A stretch of 64,000 bases of DNA from Ostreococcus lucimarinus (Eukaryota), in assembly GCA_000092065.1 (NCBI GenBank), contig CP000587.1, one strand, 5' to 3'. The notes under the pieces were generated by a model. The model saw nothing but the letters and a program-made list of their open reading frames with translations, was not told the DNA's origin and searched no databases. The translations under genes and the position numbers were made by a program. Positions 14,521 to 35,059 of this stretch are shown one piece after another; the first letter of the stretch is position 1; every line of letters starts with the position of its first letter.

Positions 14521-17500
14521 CTAGCGCCACTCGACGAAGTGTTGGCGCAGTTGCTTTGGTCGACAAGAGCGACCTTCTTCGAGGTTGAACTTGTAGCAAA
14601 CTCCTTGACGCAGTTCCATCGGGAACAAATCCGGATGGAGAATTCGAGCTAAAGTCTCCACACCATCAACGAGTTGTGGACCGGCTTGACAAATCATTTC
14701 GTGGGAGAGAACGAAGACGCGGCGATCGCGCACGGCAGGAATCACCCACCAACCCGGCTGACTCGCCAAATGTTCTAGCTGTTCGAGCGTCCTCTCCATG
14801 GTTTCTTCGGATGATTTACCTATGTAGCAAGGCACGAGAAGTAACACATCTGGGCCGTACGACAGCACTTGCTCCCATCGCATGCGCTCAGCTGAAACGC
14901 CCGGTTCGTGAAGTTCGTCGATACCGCCGGCGATTGATTTCATCTCGGGCAGCCAGTGTCCGCCGGCGACGAGAGGTTTGATGCCTTCCAAAGACATGAC
15001 CTTCGGCCTTTCGTCAGCCGTGGCGACGACACGAGCGATAGTACGCAAACGTGATCGAAGCTGCGTCAGCAAAGTCACCGCCTTTTCCTTTACACCGCAC
15101 AAAATCCCGATTTGAAGAATCACGTCCAAGACGTCGCTCAGCGTCTTTGGAGCGACGGGGAAGATTGACGGCCGCGACGCGTCGACTTCCAAGGAATCTT
15201 CGTCCGAATCAAACTCTGCGTTCGTCAAGAAAACTTCGGCTTCGTGTAGAAACTTGGCGGTGCCAAAACGCACATCGGTGCACTGTGAGCACACGTCTGG
15301 GGTGAAGATGAGTCGAGCCTCTGCGTGGCGCACAAAGTTGACGTCGAAGAAACACCATTTGTCGAGCGCGCTCACGTGCGACGACGAGCTATGCCTGGCC
15401 TCCAAACGAGTCAGCGAGTTGTAGCTCGACCCGTGATGAGTTCCACCAAAAAATTCGAAATCGCCATTCAAAGAGTTCGAAGACTTCTTTCGATTGTCAG
15501 CGAGACCAGCGCTCGATTGCGGCAAAGCGAGAGAGTGCAAGTGTCTGGCGACGATTTTTGGGTAATCCGTGATGTCCTCTGGAAGCACGCACGCCTCCGT
15601 GATGCCGACGATTCGATCGCCGACGCCAAGTGCATAGAGGATAGATGTCGCAGTCGTGGAAAGGGAAATTATCGACCCCACCGATTGCGGCAACGGAAGC
15701 TGCAGCTGCGAAGGCGCGTGGAGATGATCCGCCATGACTTGCGGCGCGGCGCCAAAGTATAAGTGCAGAGCCACATCGAGCTCGGGTTGCGTCGTTGACT
15801 TACGAGGCATTCCCGAGAGTTTCGATATTTGCGCACCCAGTGACTGCATCGACGCCGATGAGCGCGAGCGGAACATTCCTAATCCCTCCGCCGAGTCCAA
15901 GTCAACCGAGTACTCGCGGAAGTCGCGAGACATCGCACGAGCGCGCCGCGGCGGCAAAACCTGTTTGACTTTTTCTGGTGAATCCGACTGCGCTGACCGC
16001 GCGAGCATCTCTTCCTCGCTCATACTCCTGCTTCGTTCGAGAGCCTTGTCGAACTTTCTCGAACTGATTGGCGTCAGAGGTCCGAAGCTCTTGCTCATCG
16101 TCCTTCGTGAAACCATCGCCGCGCGCGCCGCGGCTTCCGCCGCGCCCGGCGGCACGCTTCTGCACGACTCAACGAACGAGGAAGCCAAAGATGGATTAGC
16201 GCCAAAGTGAAGGTGTAACTGCGATACCAGCACATTGTTCCACGCGAAACCGTCGAGATTGATCGAGTTTTTGCCCTTGCCGAATTTTCGTTCCTGCTTC
16301 ACCTCGTACGTCGCGCCCCAGCCGATGGCGACTTTATCCTCCGTCACGCGCATCTTGCTCGGTCTATCGCCGTGTATTTCGCTGTATCGAAACGTCTGAC
16401 CTCGAACGACTTCACCCTCGTTGAACAAAGGATTTCCGGGCGCAATAGTGATCTCGGCGTATCCCGTCTTCACCGAACTCGTGAGTCGCGTCGCGAAGGG
16501 CGCGACGCCGCACATGGATCGAGGCGAGCTCCCATCCGGCGCTGAGAGCGACTGCGAAAGGAACATCAATCCACCGCATTCGGCGTACACCACGCCTCCT
16601 GCTGTGGCAAACGCCGTCACCGCCGATCGTAAAGGCCGATTCTTGAACAAGGCCTGCGCGTGAAACTCGGGATAACCTCCGCCAAAGATGACGCCTTGGA
16701 CGTCGCTCGGCAATCCTTCGCCGGCTATCGGACTAAAGTAGACTAATTCCGCCCCCGCGTCTTCCAACTTGGCTAAATTTTCGGGATAGTAGAAGCAAAA
16801 CGCTTCGTCTCGAGCGACAGCGATGCGCACTTTCGGCTTTGACGGCCCCGCCTCGAGTTCCTCTCGCATGGCGCGTTCGAGCGCCAAATCGCGCGCGACG
16901 CGCGGCGAAATTTCGTACGCCGGCATCGCTTCGAACAACGCGTCGAGATCGACGTTTTGCTCGAGCAACATCGCCATGTGCTGAATTTTCTGCTCCATGG
17001 CGTCGTCACTCGTCGTCGCCGCGCTCGTTGGATCAAACGTGGGCCCGTTGGTGTCCTTGGGAATCCCCCCGAAGACGTCCACGTGCGCCATCGCCGCCAA
17101 GAGACTTTCTCGCAAGTACTCCGTGTGCGCCTCACCACCGGTTTTGTTGAAAACCACCCCCACCAAATTCAACTCCGCGTCGAATTCTCTGTACCCCTTG
17201 ATCACCGCCGCCACCGAGCGCGCCATGGCGTTACAATCCACCACCAGCAGCACCCCCGCCTCGAGCCACTTTGCCATCTGCGCCGTCGATCCGTCCTCGC
17301 TCATCCCATCTCTCCCATCGTACAGCCCCATCACCCCGTCCACGATCGCCACGTCGCACGTCTCCGCGTGTTTCGCCACCACCCTCGCCACCGCTCCCGC
17401 GCTCATCATGTACCCATCCAGATTTTCGCTCTCCCGCGCGTCCCCGCTCTGGCTCCGCAGCGCCGATCGGTGCGCCATGGGATCCACGAAATCGCACCCA

Positions 17501-17613
17501 ACCTTGAACGCTCGCACTCGCAGTCCCCGTCTCGCGTACGCCAGCATCAACGCCGTCGCGATCGTCGTCTTCCCCACCCCCGAGTGCGTTCCCGCGACGA
17601 CCACCACCTTCAT
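14521..17613 (-). CDS. Cobyrinic/hydrogenobyrinic acid a,c-diamide synthase-like (CbiA/CobB) fused to a BtuF-like periplasmic-binding-protein domain
   Basis: Starts MKVVVVAGTHSGVGKTT (P-loop). CbiA-like strings: DGVMGLYDG, GSTAQMAKW, VARDEAFCFYYPENL and the GATase context YAECGGLMFL. A Ser-rich linker follows. The C-terminal PBP signature is IISLSTTATSILYALGVGDRIVGITE ... PDVLLLVPC ... AVRDRRVFVL ... GPQLVDGVETLARILHP. The 255 aa upstream in the track ORF (GTG start) is rejected. Confidence 0.75.
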   Translation of the reverse strand: MKVVVVAGTHSGVGKTTIATALMLAYARRGLRVRAFKVGCDFVDPMAHRSALRSQSGDARESENLDGYMMSAGAVARVVAKHAETCDVAIVDGVMGLYDGRDGMSEDGSTAQMAKWLEAGVLLVVDCNAMARSVAAVIKGYREFDAELNLVGVVFNKTGGEAHTEYLRESLLAAMAHVDVFGGIPKDTNGPTFDPTSAATTSDDAMEQKIQHMAMLLEQNVDLDALFEAMPAYEISPRVARDLALERAMREELEAGPSKPKVRIAVARDEAFCFYYPENLAKLEDAGAELVYFSPIAGEGLPSDVQGVIFGGGYPEFHAQALFKNRPLRSAVTAFATAGGVVYAECGGLMFLSQSLSAPDGSSPRSMCGVAPFATRLTSSVKTGYAEITIAPGNPLFNEGEVVRGQTFRYSEIHGDRPSKMRVTEDKVAIGWGATYEVKQERKFGKGKNSINLDGFAWNNVLVSQLHLHFGANPSLASSFVESCRSVPPGAAEAAARAAMVSRRTMSKSFGPLTPISSRKFDKALERSRSMSEEEMLARSAQSDSPEKVKQVLPPRRARAMSRDFREYSVDLDSAEGLGMFRSRSSASMQSLGAQISKLSGMPRKSTTQPELDVALHLYFGAAPQVMADHLHAPSQLQLPLPQSVGSIISLSTTATSILYALGVGDRIVGITEACVLPEDITDYPKIVARHLHSLALPQSSAGLADNRKKSSNSLNGDFEFFGGTHHGSSYNSLTRLEARHSSSSHVSALDKWCFFDVNFVRHAEARLIFTPDVCSQCTDVRFGTAKFLHEAEVFLTNAEFDSDEDSLEVDASRPSIFPVAPKTLSDVLDVILQIGILCGVKEKAVTLLTQLRSRLRTIARVVATADERPKVMSLEGIKPLVAGGHWLPEMKSIAGGIDELHEPGVSAERMRWEQVLSYGPDVLLLVPCYIGKSSEETMERTLEQLEHLASQPGWWVIPAVRDRRVFVLSHEMICQAGPQLVDGVETLARILHPDLFPMELRQGVCYKFNLEEGRSCRPKQLRQHFVEWR

Positions 17614-31602: not shown

Positions 31603-33246
31603 CTATTTTTTCTCCTCCGCCTTGACCGACTCCTCGATCGAGCCGCTCCTGTCGTCGTGCATGCACCAATCCGGAATGAGCACGTAAATGAGCGGTATGG
31701 AGAAGAGTGGTAAGATGATACCGCATACGATCAACAAAGGGATGAGTTGGTCGAAGTTGCAGTGGCCGTGCACCAAGTCGGTGTGGATTCCCACAAACGT
31801 CATCGACGCCGACCCGAGCGTGAGCGCCACGCCCGAGGCGACGTTCACCACCCCGGCGAGCAGGGTGTACATCGTACACGATACTTCTTTGTCTACGATC
31901 TTCGACAGCACCGCATTCGCTGGCATGTACGTCAAAACATACGCGATTCCCTCGATGATGCCCTCGCCCATGACGTACGCGCTGCGATCGTCGATGCCCA
32001 TGGCGATGTTCCAGCGCAAGATGATCCATATATCCCCCAGCTTGGCGATCACCTTCGTGAGCGCGCACGCGAGAAATACGCTGCGTATTTTCGAACGACT
32101 CAAATATTTCTGAAAGAGCCAGATGCCGATCATTTGCGCCCCGAGGGAGAAAAGAAAGGTGGTGACGCTGTAAAACACGTAGCTAAAGTGCGGGCCATCG
32201 GGCACGCACTTGGCGCCTTCGGTGTACCAGTACGTCTTTGCCTGCCTCACGTTCACGCCGAGAACGCGATCGACGGCGACATAAATGAGTAAGCAAGCCT
32301 CATCCCGCTCCAAATGCGCGTACACGACTCCCGTCATGATGAGCAAGATGCCGAAACAAGTCGAGACGCAAAGCGCGAGATCCGTCTCAAACGCGTCTAC
32401 GAGTTGCATGCTGACCACCCCGACGGAAGCGAGGGTGATGGTAACGGTCACGACGAACACGTTCCAATACTTCTTCGCGAGCGCGTGCGCGTTGAAATCA
32501 CTCCCCACGCGCTCTTCCGGTAACAACCCGTACGCGGTGGTGAACGCAAACTGCGCCACGAAAGGCGTCACGAGCCAAAATATAAGCTTATAATCGCCTC
32601 GCGACAACCCGATGTACGCCAACAGCGTCCCGAAGATGCTCCCCACAGTAGCCACGGTCCAGCTATACGTCATTAAATCCCCACCGATCCGTTGCACCTC
32701 GGACATCGCCTCGAACACCCTCGCTCCCGCGAGCGAGTCCCCAAACGCCAACAGCATGTTCGTCGCCAACACAAATACTGTGTACCACGTCGCGTCGTCG
32801 GACGAGAACGTCTTCGTCGCAAGAACTATGATCGCAACTAGCCCCGTGACGGCGAACGTGGCGAGATAGTACCTCTTGCGATACCCAAATACCGGCGTCG
32901 TGTCCGTCACCATGCCCATGAATGGCTTCAACATCCAAGGAAAGCTCACGAGAACTTCGAAGCGCTGGAACGCCTGCGCGGAGAATTTCAGGTACCGCTG
33001 CGCGTACGGCAGCGAAGTGGTGCTGATCATGTGCTTCGCCGCGCCCTTGACGAAGAAATCGGCGGAGAACACGAACGCGAGGAGTTGCCAGCCGAACACC
33101 CCGCGCAGGCGCTCGTGAAAGGCGACGACGTCGGACAGCGGTGCGCACGACGCTCGCGCGCTCGCGGACGCCGCCGACGATGGATCATCGTCGTCGGCAC
33201 GTACACGCGCGCCGCGCGCGTCGTCGTCGCGCTTGGACGTCGCCAT
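31603..33246 (-). CDS. BT1/folate-biopterin transporter family MFS protein (paralog 1)
   Basis: Twelve-helix-type membrane protein. BT1-like N-terminal strings: LPYAQRYLKFSAQAFQRFEVLVSFPWMLKPFMGMVTDTTPVFGYRKRYYL. Confidence 0.7.
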   Translation of the reverse strand: MATSKRDDDARGARVRADDDDPSSAASASARASCAPLSDVVAFHERLRGVFGWQLLAFVFSADFFVKGAAKHMISTTSLPYAQRYLKFSAQAFQRFEVLVSFPWMLKPFMGMVTDTTPVFGYRKRYYLATFAVTGLVAIIVLATKTFSSDDATWYTVFVLATNMLLAFGDSLAGARVFEAMSEVQRIGGDLMTYSWTVATVGSIFGTLLAYIGLSRGDYKLIFWLVTPFVAQFAFTTAYGLLPEERVGSDFNAHALAKKYWNVFVVTVTITLASVGVVSMQLVDAFETDLALCVSTCFGILLIMTGVVYAHLERDEACLLIYVAVDRVLGVNVRQAKTYWYTEGAKCVPDGPHFSYVFYSVTTFLFSLGAQMIGIWLFQKYLSRSKIRSVFLACALTKVIAKLGDIWIILRWNIAMGIDDRSAYVMGEGIIEGIAYVLTYMPANAVLSKIVDKEVSCTMYTLLAGVVNVASGVALTLGSASMTFVGIHTDLVHGHCNFDQLIPLLIVCGIILPLFSIPLIYVLIPDWCMHDDRSGSIEESVKAEEKK

Positions 33247-33358: not shown

Positions 33359-35059
33359 CTAAGTGGATTTCGCTAAGAGTGGTACGCGCTCGGTGGGCGC
33401 TTCGTTGGCGTCGTCGGCCGAGCTCGCGACGGCTTTACCCGTGTCCAGGTCGACGACGTCCTGCATATTAATGTTCGGGACGAAGACGAAGGTGAGGGGG
33501 ATGGAAACCAACGGAAGGAGCATGCCGCAGTAAAACACCAGGCTGGGTAAGCCTGAGAAGTCGCACGCACCGCCTTCGCCCGAGGTGAGGTCGGTTTTAA
33601 TCCCCGCTACGTCCATGGCGAAGACGCCGAGCGCGCTCGAGAGCGAGTAGCCGAGGTTGTTGAAGCTCGCCAAGATGGCAAACATCGTCGCCTCCATATT
33701 CTCTGGACACATCTTCGACATCAAAACCATGCTCGGCATGGATGCCATCATCCCAACCATCGGTTCCAACACGGTGTCGCCGATCAAGTAGAACGCCTTG
33801 TCCGATAATCCGACGCGAAGGTTCCAGCGCTTGACGATGCAGTAATCGGAGATGCTCGCCATGGAGCTCAAAATCGCCGACACCCAAAACGTCACTCGCA
33901 CGTTGGCGTTTGAAAAGAACACTTGAAATAAGTACACACCAATGGCGGTACAAATGCGCGCGATGATTGACGTGTACACGGAGAAAAAGAGATAATCAAA
34001 GTGCGGCCCGCCCGGGTTGCACTTTTCATCCACCGTGAACCAGTAACTCATCGCGCTTCCGAACGACACGCTCAGCACGCTGGTGAGAAACAGAAAGAAT
34101 GTGACGTTGGCGATGGATCTCGGCAACGCGACGTAAATCGACACGCTCAACACGAGGGTAATCCCGAACGAAATGGCTAAATCTACATACTTGTTCTCTG
34201 GCTGCAAAAATTGCACGACGCCGAGAAGCAAACACATCGACGCCATGAAAATCGACATCACGAACACCCTCCAGTTCTCGTTCCACAGCTCTTTCCCATA
34301 CACCTTCCTCGATCCACTCTCAGCCTCGTTTTCCGCGCGCTCGTCTCTTGGCACGACCTTTTCCTCCGGAAGCCATCCCGCGAGCGACGTGTACACCGCC
34401 TGCCCGCTCAGCGGCACCGCGATCCACATCAACGACCGATACGCCTCGTACTTGATGGAAAAAAAGCTACACGCCGTGGCGAAAACGGACCCAAACGTGA
34501 TGCACATCCACACGTAACTCACCATATCGCTCGACTTCGTCGGGTGCTCCCGCATGCGCTCGGTGTACTTGCCCTCCGTCAGCAAATCCGCCGTCGCCAC
34601 TTGAAAATTAATCGCCACCAAGCCGAGGACGTACCACGCCCCCATCCCCGGTTTGAATTCAACGACGGCCAAGTACACCAGCGCCGCGCATCCGAGCGCG
34701 CTGGAGATGGCGATGTAATATCGCTTGTGATACCCTCCGATTGGAAACAAATCCGAAATCATCCCCACGAGCGGTTTCACCGTCCACGGAAACATCGCCA
34801 CGATGCCGTATCGCTGCATCTCCTCCGCGGTGAACTTCAGGTACTTTTGCGAGTACGGCAGCGCCGCCGTGCTGACGAGCTGCATGAGCGCGCCCTTGAG
34901 TCCGAACGCGACGGAGAATATGAACACCAAAAGATTTCGTCCGTACGTCGCGCGAAGCGTGCGCAGCAGCGTCGCGGGATTACCGACGCCGCGCGCCGCG
35001 CGCGCCGTCGTCGACGGTTTCGCGTCGTCGTTTTCACCGCTCTCGCCCGGCGTCGCCAT
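33359..35059 (-). CDS. BT1/folate-biopterin transporter family MFS protein (paralog 2)
   Basis: Collinear with the upstream paralog: LPYSQKYLKFTAEEMQRYGIVAMFPWTVKPLVGMISDLFPIGGYHKRYYI. Confidence 0.7.
   Translation of the reverse strand: MATPGESGENDDAKPSTTARAARGVGNPATLLRTLRATYGRNLLVFIFSVAFGLKGALMQLVSTAALPYSQKYLKFTAEEMQRYGIVAMFPWTVKPLVGMISDLFPIGGYHKRYYIAISSALGCAALVYLAVVEFKPGMGAWYVLGLVAINFQVATADLLTEGKYTERMREHPTKSSDMVSYVWMCITFGSVFATACSFFSIKYEAYRSLMWIAVPLSGQAVYTSLAGWLPEEKVVPRDERAENEAESGSRKVYGKELWNENWRVFVMSIFMASMCLLLGVVQFLQPENKYVDLAISFGITLVLSVSIYVALPRSIANVTFFLFLTSVLSVSFGSAMSYWFTVDEKCNPGGPHFDYLFFSVYTSIIARICTAIGVYLFQVFFSNANVRVTFWVSAILSSMASISDYCIVKRWNLRVGLSDKAFYLIGDTVLEPMVGMMASMPSMVLMSKMCPENMEATMFAILASFNNLGYSLSSALGVFAMDVAGIKTDLTSGEGGACDFSGLPSLVFYCGMLLPLVSIPLTFVFVPNINMQDVVDLDTGKAVASSADDANEAPTERVPLLAKST

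What the first reader, a model, noticed from the sequence alone, without database searches (positions are those of the whole stretch)
14521..17613. A CbiA/CobB-type tetrapyrrole amidotransferase is fused to a BtuF-like binding domain, with no other corrin pathway gene nearby
The 1030-aa protein has a complete a,c-diamide synthase layout. This comprises the P-loop MKVVVVAGTHSGVGKTT, DGVMGLYDG, GSTAQ, VARDEAFCFYYPENL and a glutamine-amidotransferase half with the nucleophile context YAECGGLMFL. A ~150-aa Ser/Arg-rich linker follows. The C-terminus carries a class-III periplasmic-binding-protein signature: IISLSTTATSILYALGVGDRIVGITE ... PDVLLLVPC ... AVRDRRVFVLSHE ... GPQLVDGVETLARILHP. That is the fold of BtuF and of haem/siderophore binders; here it has no signal peptide and a large insertion. 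If the source is a prasinophyte picoalga as inferred, these organisms are known B12 auxotrophs without de novo corrin synthesis. A lone corrin-type amidase wired to a tetrapyrrole-type ligand-binding module is therefore unexplained. Possible roles are corrinoid salvage or remodelling, or amidation of a different tetrapyrrole (by analogy with CfbB in F430 synthesis). I know of no described function for this fusion.
Basis: partly seen in the sequence, partly recalled or inferred. Interest (0 to 1): 0.65.

Follow-up and report, generated by a model that had tools for sequence, protein, structure and literature searches.

The report
Corrin amidase fused to cytosolic B12-binder
A vitamin-B12-requiring picoalga encodes one long protein that joins a bacterial-type corrin side-chain amidating enzyme to a domain whose closest bacterial relatives sit in B12-uptake operons; it probably salvages or repairs imported B12, and its function has not been studied.

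Summary

It is not a lone oddity. The same architecture occurs in green algae, liverworts, mosses, lycophytes, a haptophyte, oomycetes and dinoflagellates.

The C-terminal half is not a degenerate BtuF. It shares 36-43% identity and four invariant cysteines with a large family of leaderless ~300-aa prokaryotic proteins. In Gammaproteobacteria and Planctomycetota these lie in cobalamin-riboswitch-controlled operons beside B12-uptake and adenosylation genes and a Dph6-like ATP-dependent amidoligase.

Best reading: a cytosolic protein that binds imported corrinoid and (re)amidates its acetate side chains, for salvage or repair rather than synthesis. This is unproven. The distribution does not follow B12-dependent methionine synthase, and the glutaminase cysteine was lost at least eight times. 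I found no paper on its function.

The parts
14521..17613 (-). Complete CDS of the fusion protein (1030 codons plus TAG).
   Evidence: Single open frame. Orthologous single ORFs of 1016-1056 aa at 65-98% identity. RefSeq models XP_001419027 (aa 1-485) and XP_001419026 (aa 824-1030) cover only its two ends.
16849..17613 (-). ATP-binding synthetase domain of CobB/CbiA type (aa 1-255). The P-loop GTHSGVGKT is aa 8-16, nt 17566-17592.
   Evidence: Pfam CbiA and AAA_26. NCBIfam CobB equivalog, full length. AlphaFold pLDDT about 90. P-loop conserved in homologues.
16093..16848 (-). CobB/CobQ-type glutamine amidotransferase domain (aa 256-507). Nucleophile Cys346 is at nt 16576-16578. Invariant His467 is at nt 16213-16215.
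   Evidence: Pfam GATase_3, E 4.5e-27. Motif columns across 120 homologues. Codons verified.
15700..16092 (-). Disordered linker rich in Ser, Leu, Ala and Arg (aa 508-638).
   Evidence: pLDDT 28-37. 60-68% identical among Ostreococcus clades, so it is coding and under constraint. Composition.
14629..15699 (-). Class III PBP-like domain of the leaderless four-cysteine family (aa 639-995). Cys675 is at nt 15589-15591, Cys775 at 15289-15291, Cys778 at 15280-15282 and Cys929 at 14827-14829. His886-Trp887 are at 14953-14958.
15361..15534 (-). Mamiellales-specific disordered insertion within the N-lobe of the PBP-like domain (aa 694-751).
   Evidence: pLDDT below 50. Absent from most non-Mamiellales homologues. 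Only 34-48% conserved within Ostreococcus.
14524..14628 (-). Conserved eukaryote-type C-terminal tail (aa 996-1030, consensus LKLxLxxGxxCRPxxLxxxFxPY).
   Evidence: Alignment conservation. Modelled with pLDDT about 90.

Best explanation
This is a cytosolic, bifunctional corrinoid-handling protein.

The C-terminal domain is the eukaryotic version of a leaderless bacterial B12-regulon protein. It holds a corrinoid that has entered the cell in its inter-lobe cleft, which is lined by four invariant cysteines and a His-Trp pair.

The N-terminal CobB/CbiA-type enzyme is tethered by a ~130-aa flexible linker. It uses ATP and glutamine-derived (or free) ammonia to convert free acetate side chains (positions a and/or c) of that corrinoid into acetamides.

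The alga has no corrin pathway, so the likely purpose is salvage or repair of incompletely amidated or deamidated corrinoids, not de novo synthesis.

Shown: the single ORF, intact catalytic motifs, both folds, family membership of each half, and the B12-operon context of the bacterial relatives of the C-terminal half.

Inferred: that the ligand is a corrinoid, that the enzyme acts on it, which side chains it acts on, the hand-over between domains, and the cytosolic location.
For: 1. One polypeptide.
- The ORF is uninterrupted.
- The linker is conserved at 60-68% among Ostreococcus clades.
- Complete MMETSP transcripts encode the whole fusion in O. mediterraneus (1042 aa) and Bathycoccus (1254 aa).

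2. The enzyme half is a bona fide CobB/CbiA by curated thresholds. It is about 32-38% identical to bacterial cobyrinate a,c-diamide synthases; the Marchantia orthologue is 41-51% identical to them. The P-loop, the DxAFxFYY motif, Cys346 and His467 are present here and in about 105 of 120 homologues.

3. The binding half is closest to a prokaryotic family.
- The family has at least 593 confirmed loci and 1639 representative clusters at E<=1e-30.
- Its members are ~300-aa proteins that start at the first beta-strand, with no leader.
- It shares with them four invariant cysteines and the GHW and FSRPGPRLV motifs.

4. That family sits in cobalamin-riboswitch operons in six loci from two phyla.
- L045 and L082: riboswitch, then TonB receptor, Dph6-like, PBP-like and BtuR. 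L082 continues with BtuC, BtuD and a second, BtuF-like binding protein.
- L046: riboswitch, then TonB receptor, DUF6580, PBP-like and PduO-type adenosyltransferase.
- L074: riboswitch, then TonB receptor, DUF6580 and PBP-like.
- L027 and L064: riboswitch, then DUF6580, PBP-like and Dph6-like.

5. The most frequent direct neighbour in bacteria is an ATP-dependent amidoligase-family protein (PF01902). It is adjacent in 7 of 80 loci, spread over several distant lineages. This repeats the theme of 'binder plus carboxylate amidation' seen in the eukaryotic fusion.

6. The start is directly at the P-loop strand, with no N-terminal extension. This fits a cytosolic location.
Against: - The phyletic pattern does not follow B12 use. 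The fusion is present in liverworts, mosses and lycophytes, which lack METH, MTRR, CblC and CblD according to PMC11439496.
- It was not seen among named hits from Chlamydomonas/Volvox, Phytophthora or seed plants, although bacterial CbiA at E 1e-105 were listed.
- The glutaminase nucleophile is replaced in O. mediterraneus, Bathycoccus, Riccia, Elliptochloris, Diphasiastrum, Selaginella, Tetraselmis GSL018, P0060, P0070 and P0237. Glutamine-dependent catalysis is therefore dispensable in many lineages.
- Only 5 of 42 bacterial loci scanned with Rfam carry the riboswitch. A sixth came from a separate look-up.
- None of the 80 bacterial loci has cobB next to the PBP-like gene.
- No ligand binding or activity has been measured.
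- The relative orientation of the two domains could not be predicted (pTM 0.53).
- Four invariant cysteines could instead mean a metal or Fe-S site unrelated to corrinoids.
Confidence: 0.45

Rival explanations
1. B12 escort or chaperone with a largely non-catalytic CobB half. The C-terminal domain receives and holds cobalamin in the cytosol, possibly through a cobalt-thiolate bond. The SIMIBI-type ATPase/GATase half serves as a nucleotide-driven loading, release or docking module rather than as an amidotransferase.
For: At least eight independent replacements of the nucleophile cysteine occurred while the rest of the protein stayed conserved. In bacteria the PBP-like protein lies between importer genes and the adenosyltransferase. 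Some SAR proteins appear to have PBP, Kelch and DUF5522 without CobB.
Against: Cys346, His467, the P-loop and the substrate-side motifs are retained in about 105 of 120 homologues, including the window protein. The score against the CobB equivalog is far above its threshold. From my own knowledge, CbiA can use free ammonia when its glutaminase is inactive (Fresquet et al. 2004, not checked here), so losing the cysteine need not abolish amidation. The CobB-less proteins may be truncated gene models.
Confidence: 0.2
2. Amidation of a non-corrin tetrapyrrole that these organisms make themselves. The substrate would come from the sirohaem branch (precorrin-2, sirohydrochlorin or sirohaem), giving a sirohaem-amide-like or CfbB-like product. 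The PBP-like domain would act as the tetrapyrrole carrier.
For: The protein is present in land plants that lack METH. All carriers of the protein make sirohaem (general knowledge). CfbB still scores 335 bits. Structural neighbours of the domain include haem binders on a par with BtuF.
Against: The CfbB score is below its 560-bit cut-off and below the CobB score. The closest relatives of the binding domain lie in cobalamin-riboswitch operons with BtuB, BtuCDF and adenosyltransferases, not with sirohaem or haem genes. Seed plants make sirohaem but no orthologue was listed for them. No N-terminal extension for plastid targeting is seen in the window protein, although sirohaem synthesis in plants is plastidial (general knowledge).
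Confidence: 0.15
3. Artefact: two adjacent genes, or a decaying pseudogene, merely read as one ORF, as the RefSeq annotation with two partial models implies.
For: RefSeq has two partial models covering aa 1-485 and aa 824-1030. GC3 drops from 0.74 in the CobB half to about 0.60 in the C-terminal half.
Against: There is no stop or frameshift across 3090 nt. The linker is conserved at protein level among Ostreococcus clades. The same single-ORF architecture is found in many genomes and in complete transcripts. The C-terminal domain's first strand and N-lobe (aa 645-693) lie in the part RefSeq left unannotated, so the 207-aa model is an incomplete domain.
Confidence: 0.03

Closest known systems
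CbiA / CobB, cobyrinic (hydrogenobyrinic) acid a,c-diamide synthase of bacterial B12 synthesis
   Same: Full-length match above the curated equivalog threshold. Same two-domain layout, with a P-loop synthetase plus a Triad-type GATase_3. The Cys nucleophile and His are conserved. The window CobB half is about 32-38% identical to bacterial enzymes; Marchantia is 41-51% identical.
   Different: It is encoded in a eukaryote without the rest of the corrin pathway. It carries a 130-aa linker and a C-terminal binding domain. The nucleophile has been lost repeatedly in sister lineages. The substrate is unknown.
Leaderless four-cysteine PBP-like proteins of bacteria and archaea (named 'cobalamin-binding protein' or 'ABC transporter substrate-binding protein' by automatic annotation; no characterised member found)
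   Same: 36-43% identity over about 300 aa. Same invariant Cys675, Cys775, Cys778 and Cys929, and the same GHW, E876 and FSRPGPRLV motifs. No signal peptide.
   Different: The bacterial proteins are standalone. In some lineages they are encoded in B12-riboswitch btu operons next to a Dph6-like protein, DUF6580 or an adenosyltransferase. The algal domain is fused to CobB, has an extra disordered insertion and has a conserved ~35-aa tail.
BtuF, the periplasmic B12-binding protein of the BtuCD-F importer
   Different: Only 15-23% identity. No leader peptide. It does not reach the BtuF equivalog model. In L082 the leaderless protein coexists in one operon with BtuC, BtuD and a second, BtuF-like binding protein.
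CfbB, Ni-sirohydrochlorin a,c-diamide synthase of F430 synthesis
   Same: Homologous enzyme with the same chemistry on the a and c acetates of a tetrapyrrole. Scores 335 bits.
   Different: Below the 560-bit family cut-off and below the CobB score. There is no methanogen context.
CBA1, algal cobalamin acquisition protein 1
   Same: An algal protein with a predicted BtuF-like fold, implicated in B12 handling (PMC10828217).
   Different: CBA1 has a signal peptide, is associated with the ER, has no enzyme domain, and is required for uptake. It tracks METH in algae, which this fusion does not. Sequence relatedness was not tested here.

Membership tests
CbiA/CobB a,c-diamide synthase | N-terminal P-loop ATPase domain of the DTBS/MinD type, with GxxGxGK[ST]. 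| tested here: met
   PF01656 2e-19 and PF13500 8e-14. GTHSGVGKT at aa 8-16.
CbiA/CobB a,c-diamide synthase | C-terminal GATase_3 domain with a cysteine nucleophile and a conserved histidine. | tested here: met
   PF07685 4.5e-27. Cys346 in YAECGGLMFL and His467 in HLHF.
CbiA/CobB a,c-diamide synthase | Score above the curated equivalog or subfamily threshold over the full model. | tested here: met
   NF002204 gives 391.4 bits against 254, covering profile 1-420 of 420. TIGR00379 gives 346.6 against 261.4.
CbiA/CobB a,c-diamide synthase | Works within a corrin biosynthetic pathway, with neighbouring or co-occurring cob/cbi genes. | tested here: not met
   No cob/cbi or B12 gene among 20 window ORFs, and no tblastn hit for seven B12-related seeds. 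The whole genome could not be searched. Absence of the pathway in Ostreococcus rests on published knowledge.
CbiA/CobB a,c-diamide synthase | ATP-dependent amidation of cobyrinic or hydrogenobyrinic acid at the a and c acetates. | not testable with these tools
   Needs an enzyme assay.
CfbB (Ni-sirohydrochlorin a,c-diamide synthase) | Score above the NF033195 cut-off. | tested here: not met
   335.1 bits against a cut-off of 560.
BtuF (periplasmic B12-binding protein) | Class III periplasmic-binding-protein fold. | tested here: met
BtuF (periplasmic B12-binding protein) | Secreted, with a signal peptide, and partner of BtuCD. | tested here: not met
   It is an internal domain of a leaderless protein. 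Its bacterial relatives start at the first strand. In L082 a second, BtuF-like Peripla_BP_2 protein is encoded next to BtuC and BtuD.
BtuF (periplasmic B12-binding protein) | Score above the NF002894 equivalog cut-off. | tested here: not met
   No hit at E<=0.01 for the window domain. A bacterial relative scores 34 bits against 234.
Leaderless four-cysteine PBP-like family | Sequence identity across the whole domain, including the helical insert of the N-lobe. | tested here: met
   36-43% identity over profile residues about 1-315 of 332 in 80 loci; the query was a profile of ten eukaryotic domains, the window domain included. At least 593 loci confirmed. 1639 representative clusters at E<=1e-30.
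Leaderless four-cysteine PBP-like family | Invariant Cys in (H/D)xC-D-x-P, Q-x-x-C-x-x-C and P-C, plus the G-H-W and FSRPGPRLV motifs. | tested here: met
   C675 in 79/80. C775, C778 and C929 in 80/80. H886 and W887 in 80/80. All are present in the window protein.
Leaderless four-cysteine PBP-like family | Binds a corrinoid. | not testable with these tools
   Only indirect evidence: cobalamin riboswitch operons in six loci.
CBA1 (algal cobalamin acquisition protein) | Sequence homology to the CBA1 HMM, plus a signal peptide. | not tested
The description comes from PMC10828217.

The most novel reading that the evidence does not exclude
A corrinoid repair or re-amidation route exists that nobody has described. 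A leaderless four-cysteine B12-binding module works with an ATP-dependent amidating enzyme. In bacteria that enzyme is a Dph6-like PP-loop ligase inside riboswitch-controlled btu operons. In eukaryotes it is a fused CobB. The pair turns deamidated or incompletely amidated corrinoids back into usable cofactor. The module's retention in mosses, liverworts and lycophytes would mean that these plants still handle corrinoids, although they are considered B12-independent.
Probability: 0.25. Interest if true: 0.8.

Novelty: new variant of a known kind. Interest (0 to 1): 0.66.

Why it matters
Over half of microalgal species need B12 made by prokaryotes. Catalogues of eukaryotic B12-related proteins (METH, MTRR, MCM, RNR-II, CblA-J, CBA1, COBT/S) do not include this protein.

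If it binds and re-amidates corrinoids, several things follow:
- It adds an enzymatic step to algal B12 economy and widens the pool of 'usable' corrinoids in the sea.
- It gives a function to a large uncharacterised bacterial B12-regulon family, and to the Dph6-like and DUF6580 genes beside it.
- It offers a new marker for cryptic corrinoid metabolism in early-diverging land plants.

If the substrate turns out not to be a corrinoid, it would reveal an unknown amidated tetrapyrrole in eukaryotes. Either outcome can be tested directly with recombinant protein and existing knock-out systems.

Tried and rejected
1. Bacterial 'fusion' P0120 (760 aa), which lies in a cobU-cobT-cobS-cobC-[cobB+PBP]-cobA operon. 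I rejected it as a model for the algal architecture.
- Its PBP part is the ordinary periplasmic type. It matches the Pfam profile end to end and is only about 22% identical to the window's C-terminal domain.
- A signal-peptide-like segment (MSHLIPLVALIALLPISAAAS) sits between the halves.
- The cluster is a singleton from one metagenome contig. It is likely a read-through of adjacent cobB and btuF genes.

2. Long ORFs at L034, L049 and L031 looked like other fusions. Their N- or C-terminal extensions are low-complexity or non-homologous ORF run-on.

3. Is DUF6580 the known B12 transporter BtuM? A PDB sequence search found no solved relative, so this is unresolved.

4. Orientation of the PBP cleft towards the CobB active site. 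The full-length model has pTM 0.53 with a disordered linker, and no coordinates or PAE are available, so it cannot be judged.

5. The AFDB50 fold library was unavailable.

6. The CobB half has no relative in the PDB by sequence.

7. Literature searches on the fusion, on DUF6580, on DUF5522, and on Dph6 with cobalamin riboswitches found no functional study.

8. Riboswitch scans were negative in 37 of 42 bacterial loci. The B12-regulon link is therefore lineage-restricted.

9. A crude neighbour-joining tree of CobB halves places the bacterial best hits in one cluster and groups eukaryotes by taxonomy. It has no bootstrap and no CobB/CfbB reference sequences, so I use it only as weak support for vertical inheritance.


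Full report
**1. Observation**

The feature lies on the minus strand. The ATG is at 17611-17613 and the TAG at 14521-14523, giving 1030 codons with no stop or frameshift. The frame is open for another 256 codons upstream but holds no ATG, so the protein begins directly with the P-loop strand MKVVVVAGTHSGVGKTT.

Pfam finds three domains:
- CbiA, aa 4-189, E 2e-19.
- GATase_3, aa 263-473, E 4.5e-27.
- Peripla_BP_2, aa 824-969, E 6.5e-15.

NCBIfam places the first ~470-480 aa in the CobB equivalog (391.4 bits, cut-off 254, whole profile) and in TIGR00379 (346.6 against 261.4). CfbB reaches 335 bits, under its 560-bit cut-off.

Twenty other ORFs across the window are ordinary nuclear genes. They include PP2A-B56, transketolase, Tic110, an FtsY-like protein, PP2C, rubredoxin, EF-G, E1, serine acetyltransferase, Ku and two BT1 transporters. 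tblastn with seven B12-related seed proteins finds nothing.

**2. Source and gene model**

The 100%-identity cluster contains XP_001419027 ('predicted protein, partial', Ostreococcus lucimarinus CCE9901). The 98% cluster contains XP_001419026 ('ABC(binding protein) family transporter: iron compound, partial'). Both are on a 783-kb contig. They map to aa 1-485 and aa 824-1030 of this ORF. The public annotation therefore split the gene and left aa 486-823 unannotated.

Three results argue for one protein:
- The linker (aa 508-638) is 60-68% identical among Ostreococcus clades, comparable to the domains.
- Single ORFs of 1016-1056 aa recur in seven related clusters.
- Complete MMETSP transcripts encode the whole fusion in O. 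mediterraneus and Bathycoccus.

**3. Distribution**

The architecture is widespread. It occurs in:
- Mamiellales, Chloropicon, Tetraselmis, Trebouxiophyceae and Monoraphidium.
- Streptophyte algae: Chlorokybus, Mesotaenium, Spirogloea and Chara.
- Liverworts (Marchantia, Riccia), mosses (Physcomitrium, Ceratodon) and lycophytes (Diphasiastrum, Selaginella).
- The haptophyte Pavlova.

In oomycetes (Aphanomyces, Saprolegnia, Achlya), dinoflagellates (Prorocentrum, Polarella) and Triparma, the order is CobB, PBP, Kelch propeller, then DUF5522, with a short linker.

With Marchantia as query, no seed plant, Chlamydomonas/Volvox or Phytophthora protein appears among the top 120 hits. Bacterial CbiA at E 1e-105 are listed, so orthologues in those well-sequenced groups are very unlikely.

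Dorrell et al. 2024 (PMC11439496) report METH, MTRR, CblC and CblD only in hornworts among land plants. They report CblB and CblJ also in liverworts. The fusion therefore does not track METH.

**4. The enzyme half**

The P-loop, the DxAFxFYY motif, the nucleophile Cys346 and His467 are intact in the window protein and in about 105 of the 120 best homologues. The cysteine is replaced as follows:
- Gly in O. mediterraneus, Riccia, Elliptochloris, P0060 and P0070.
- Ser in Bathycoccus, Diphasiastrum, Tetraselmis GSL018 and P0237.
- Ala in Selaginella.

That is at least eight independent losses.

The window's CobB half is about 32-38% identical to the bacterial enzymes aligned with it. Marchantia's is 41-51% identical to its closest bacterial sequences, which include 'cobyrinate a,c-diamide synthase' of Desulfovibrio and Syntrophobacter.

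A crude NJ tree groups eukaryotic sequences by taxonomy and the bacterial hits together. No solved structure is detectable by sequence. The AlphaFold model of this half is confident, with pLDDT about 90.

**5. The binding half**

A model of aa 621-1030 has pLDDT 81.5 and pTM 0.81. It matches class III binding proteins:
- Foldseek E 1e-13 to RhuT, ShuT and V. cholerae BtuF.

Fold alone does not separate haem from B12.

A scan of one genome per prokaryotic species, using a profile of ten eukaryotic C-terminal domains (the window's among them), changed the picture. It gave at least 593 confirmed loci. The best 80 share 36-43% identity over ~300 aa. They come from Nitrospirota, Acidobacteriota, Chloroflexota, Planctomycetota, Actinomycetota, Gammaproteobacteria, Bacteroidota and one Thaumarchaeote.

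These are standalone proteins of ~300-315 aa that begin at the first beta-strand, so they have no leader. The family has 1639 representative clusters at E<=1e-30.

Four cysteines are invariant in it and present in the window protein: C675 in 79/80, and C775, C778 and C929 in 80/80. So are H886-W887, E876 and FSRPGPRLV.

The family does not reach any specific NCBIfam model, including BtuF. NCBI names its members 'cobalamin-binding protein' or 'ABC transporter substrate-binding protein' automatically. It also includes a Mamiellales-specific disordered stretch, aa 694-751.

**6. Context of the bacterial family**

Rfam finds cobalamin riboswitches heading the operon in L027, L045, L046, L064 and L074 and in L082. 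The gene orders, are:
- L045 (Porticoccus): riboswitch, TonB-dependent receptor, Dph6-like (PF01902), PBP-like, BtuR/CobO.
- L082/L083 (SAR92/Porticoccaceae): the same, followed by FecCD, an ABC ATPase and a second Peripla_BP_2 (a BtuC, BtuD and BtuF-like set). The protein here was seen on 140 contigs.
- L046: riboswitch, receptor, DUF6580, PBP-like, PduO-type adenosyltransferase.
- L074: riboswitch, receptor, DUF6580, PBP-like.
- L027 and L064 (Planctomycetota): riboswitch, DUF6580, PBP-like, Dph6-like.

Across the 80 loci, the Dph6-like gene is directly adjacent on the same strand in 7, from several distant lineages. DUF6580 is adjacent in 6. cobB is adjacent in none.

In 22 Nitrospira-type loci the neighbours are an HAD hydrolase and squalene-synthase- and amine-oxidase-like genes, with a ribonucleotide-reductase-family gene (PF02867; class not determined) at position -3 in 11 loci overall. 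The other 37 loci scanned have no riboswitch. The B12-regulon link is solid where present, but it is lineage-restricted.

**7. Mechanism**

The most economical reading has two parts. The C-terminal domain is a cytosolic corrinoid-binding module. The tethered CobB-type enzyme amidates free acetate side chains of the bound or handed-over corrinoid.

Ostreococcus lacks the corrin pathway (published knowledge, e.g. Helliwell et al. 2011; not tested here). This points to salvage or repair of incompletely amidated or deamidated corrinoids.

The bacterial pairing offers an independent parallel. There the same binding protein sits beside a Dph6-family enzyme, whose characterised members amidate a carboxylate with ATP and ammonia. 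This is inference.

The cysteines may ligate cobalt. Thiolate-cobalt bonds are known in B12 trafficking proteins (my own knowledge, not checked here). They could also form a redox or metal site. This could not be tested.

Evidence against this reading is substantial:
- The phyletic pattern is patchy and independent of METH.
- The glutaminase nucleophile has been lost repeatedly.
- There is no biochemical evidence.

I put this explanation at 0.45. The rivals are a mainly non-catalytic B12 escort (0.2), amidation of a sirohaem-branch tetrapyrrole (0.15) and an annotation artefact (0.03).

**8. Comparison and novelty**

The N-terminal half passes every sequence-based membership test for CbiA/CobB. 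It fails only the pathway-context criterion.

The C-terminal half has the BtuF fold but fails BtuF membership: it has no leader, it falls below the model cut-off, and a second, BtuF-like binding protein sits beside BtuC and BtuD in the same bacterial operon. It is a member of the leaderless four-cysteine family. CfbB membership fails. CBA1 was not tested.

[quoted passage not shown] Two papers mention an algal 'CobB' transcript in passing: PMC4057078 and bioRxiv 10.1101/2020.07.01.177865. I found no functional study.

I rate it a new variant of a known kind, with interest 0.66.

Noticed in passing
window 14521-17613 (-): RefSeq for O. lucimarinus represents this ORF as two 'partial' proteins: XP_001419027 (aa 1-485) and XP_001419026 (aa 824-1030, named as an iron-compound ABC binding protein). 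aa 486-823 are left unannotated, including the first strands of the binding domain.
   Followed up: yes
window 14524-17613 (-): GC3 falls along the gene. It is 0.74 in the CobB half, like neighbouring genes at 0.75-0.76. It is 0.66 in the linker and 0.60-0.65 in the binding half. This accounts for the local GC dip at 14-16 kb. The cause is unknown.
   Followed up: partly
window 31603-33246 (-) and 33359-35059 (-): Two tandem genes of the BT1 family (folate/biopterin transporter family).
   Followed up: no
homologues P0007, P0009, P0010, P0022, P0025, P0026, P0033, P0043, P0046, P0057, P0060, P0070, P0237, P0238: The glutaminase nucleophile cysteine is replaced by Gly, Ser or Ala in at least eight independent lineages. 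The rest of the CobB half, including His467, stays conserved.
   Followed up: yes
L027 7328-9658; L064 7385-9625; L045 5276-9523; L082 3399-10316: In bacteria, a Dph6-like ATP pyrophosphatase (PF01902) and/or a DUF6580 membrane protein are co-transcribed with the leaderless PBP-like gene behind cobalamin riboswitches. Neither has a described role in B12 metabolism. DUF6580 looks like a candidate corrinoid transporter.
   Followed up: partly
P0051, P0066, P0270, P0285, P0301 (SAR lineages); P0292, P0307, P0283, P0306: Stramenopile and alveolate versions append a Kelch beta-propeller and a Cys-rich DUF5522 after the binding domain. Some proteins show PBP, Kelch and DUF5522 without a CobB half; these may be truncated gene models.
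   Followed up: partly
L001 3302-5584: A metagenomic bacterial ORF joins cobB to an ordinary periplasmic-type binding protein, with a signal-peptide-like segment in the middle, inside a cobU-cobT-cobS-cobC-...-cobA operon. It is probably a read-through of two genes, or a membrane-spanning oddity. It is a singleton.
   Followed up: partly
P0100 (Tetraselmis striata): A second Tetraselmis protein has a permuted order: glycosyltransferase family 8, then the PBP-like domain, then CobB. It could be a merged gene model or a real rearrangement.
   Followed up: no
L002, L006, L010 and 19 other Nitrospira-type loci: Conserved synteny in 22 loci: a 272-aa protein at -2, an HAD hydrolase at -1, the PBP-like gene, a squalene/phytoene synthase at +1 and an amine-oxidase (HpnE-like) gene at +2. 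A ribonucleotide-reductase-family gene sits at -3 in 11 loci overall. No riboswitch was found in the eight of these loci that were not scanned by Rfam, nor tested; none of the 22 was included in the Rfam scans.
   Followed up: partly
L064 4311-4398 (+): A c-di-GMP-I riboswitch lies about 2.7 kb upstream of the cobalamin riboswitch in a Gemmataceae contig. It is unrelated to the finding.
   Followed up: no
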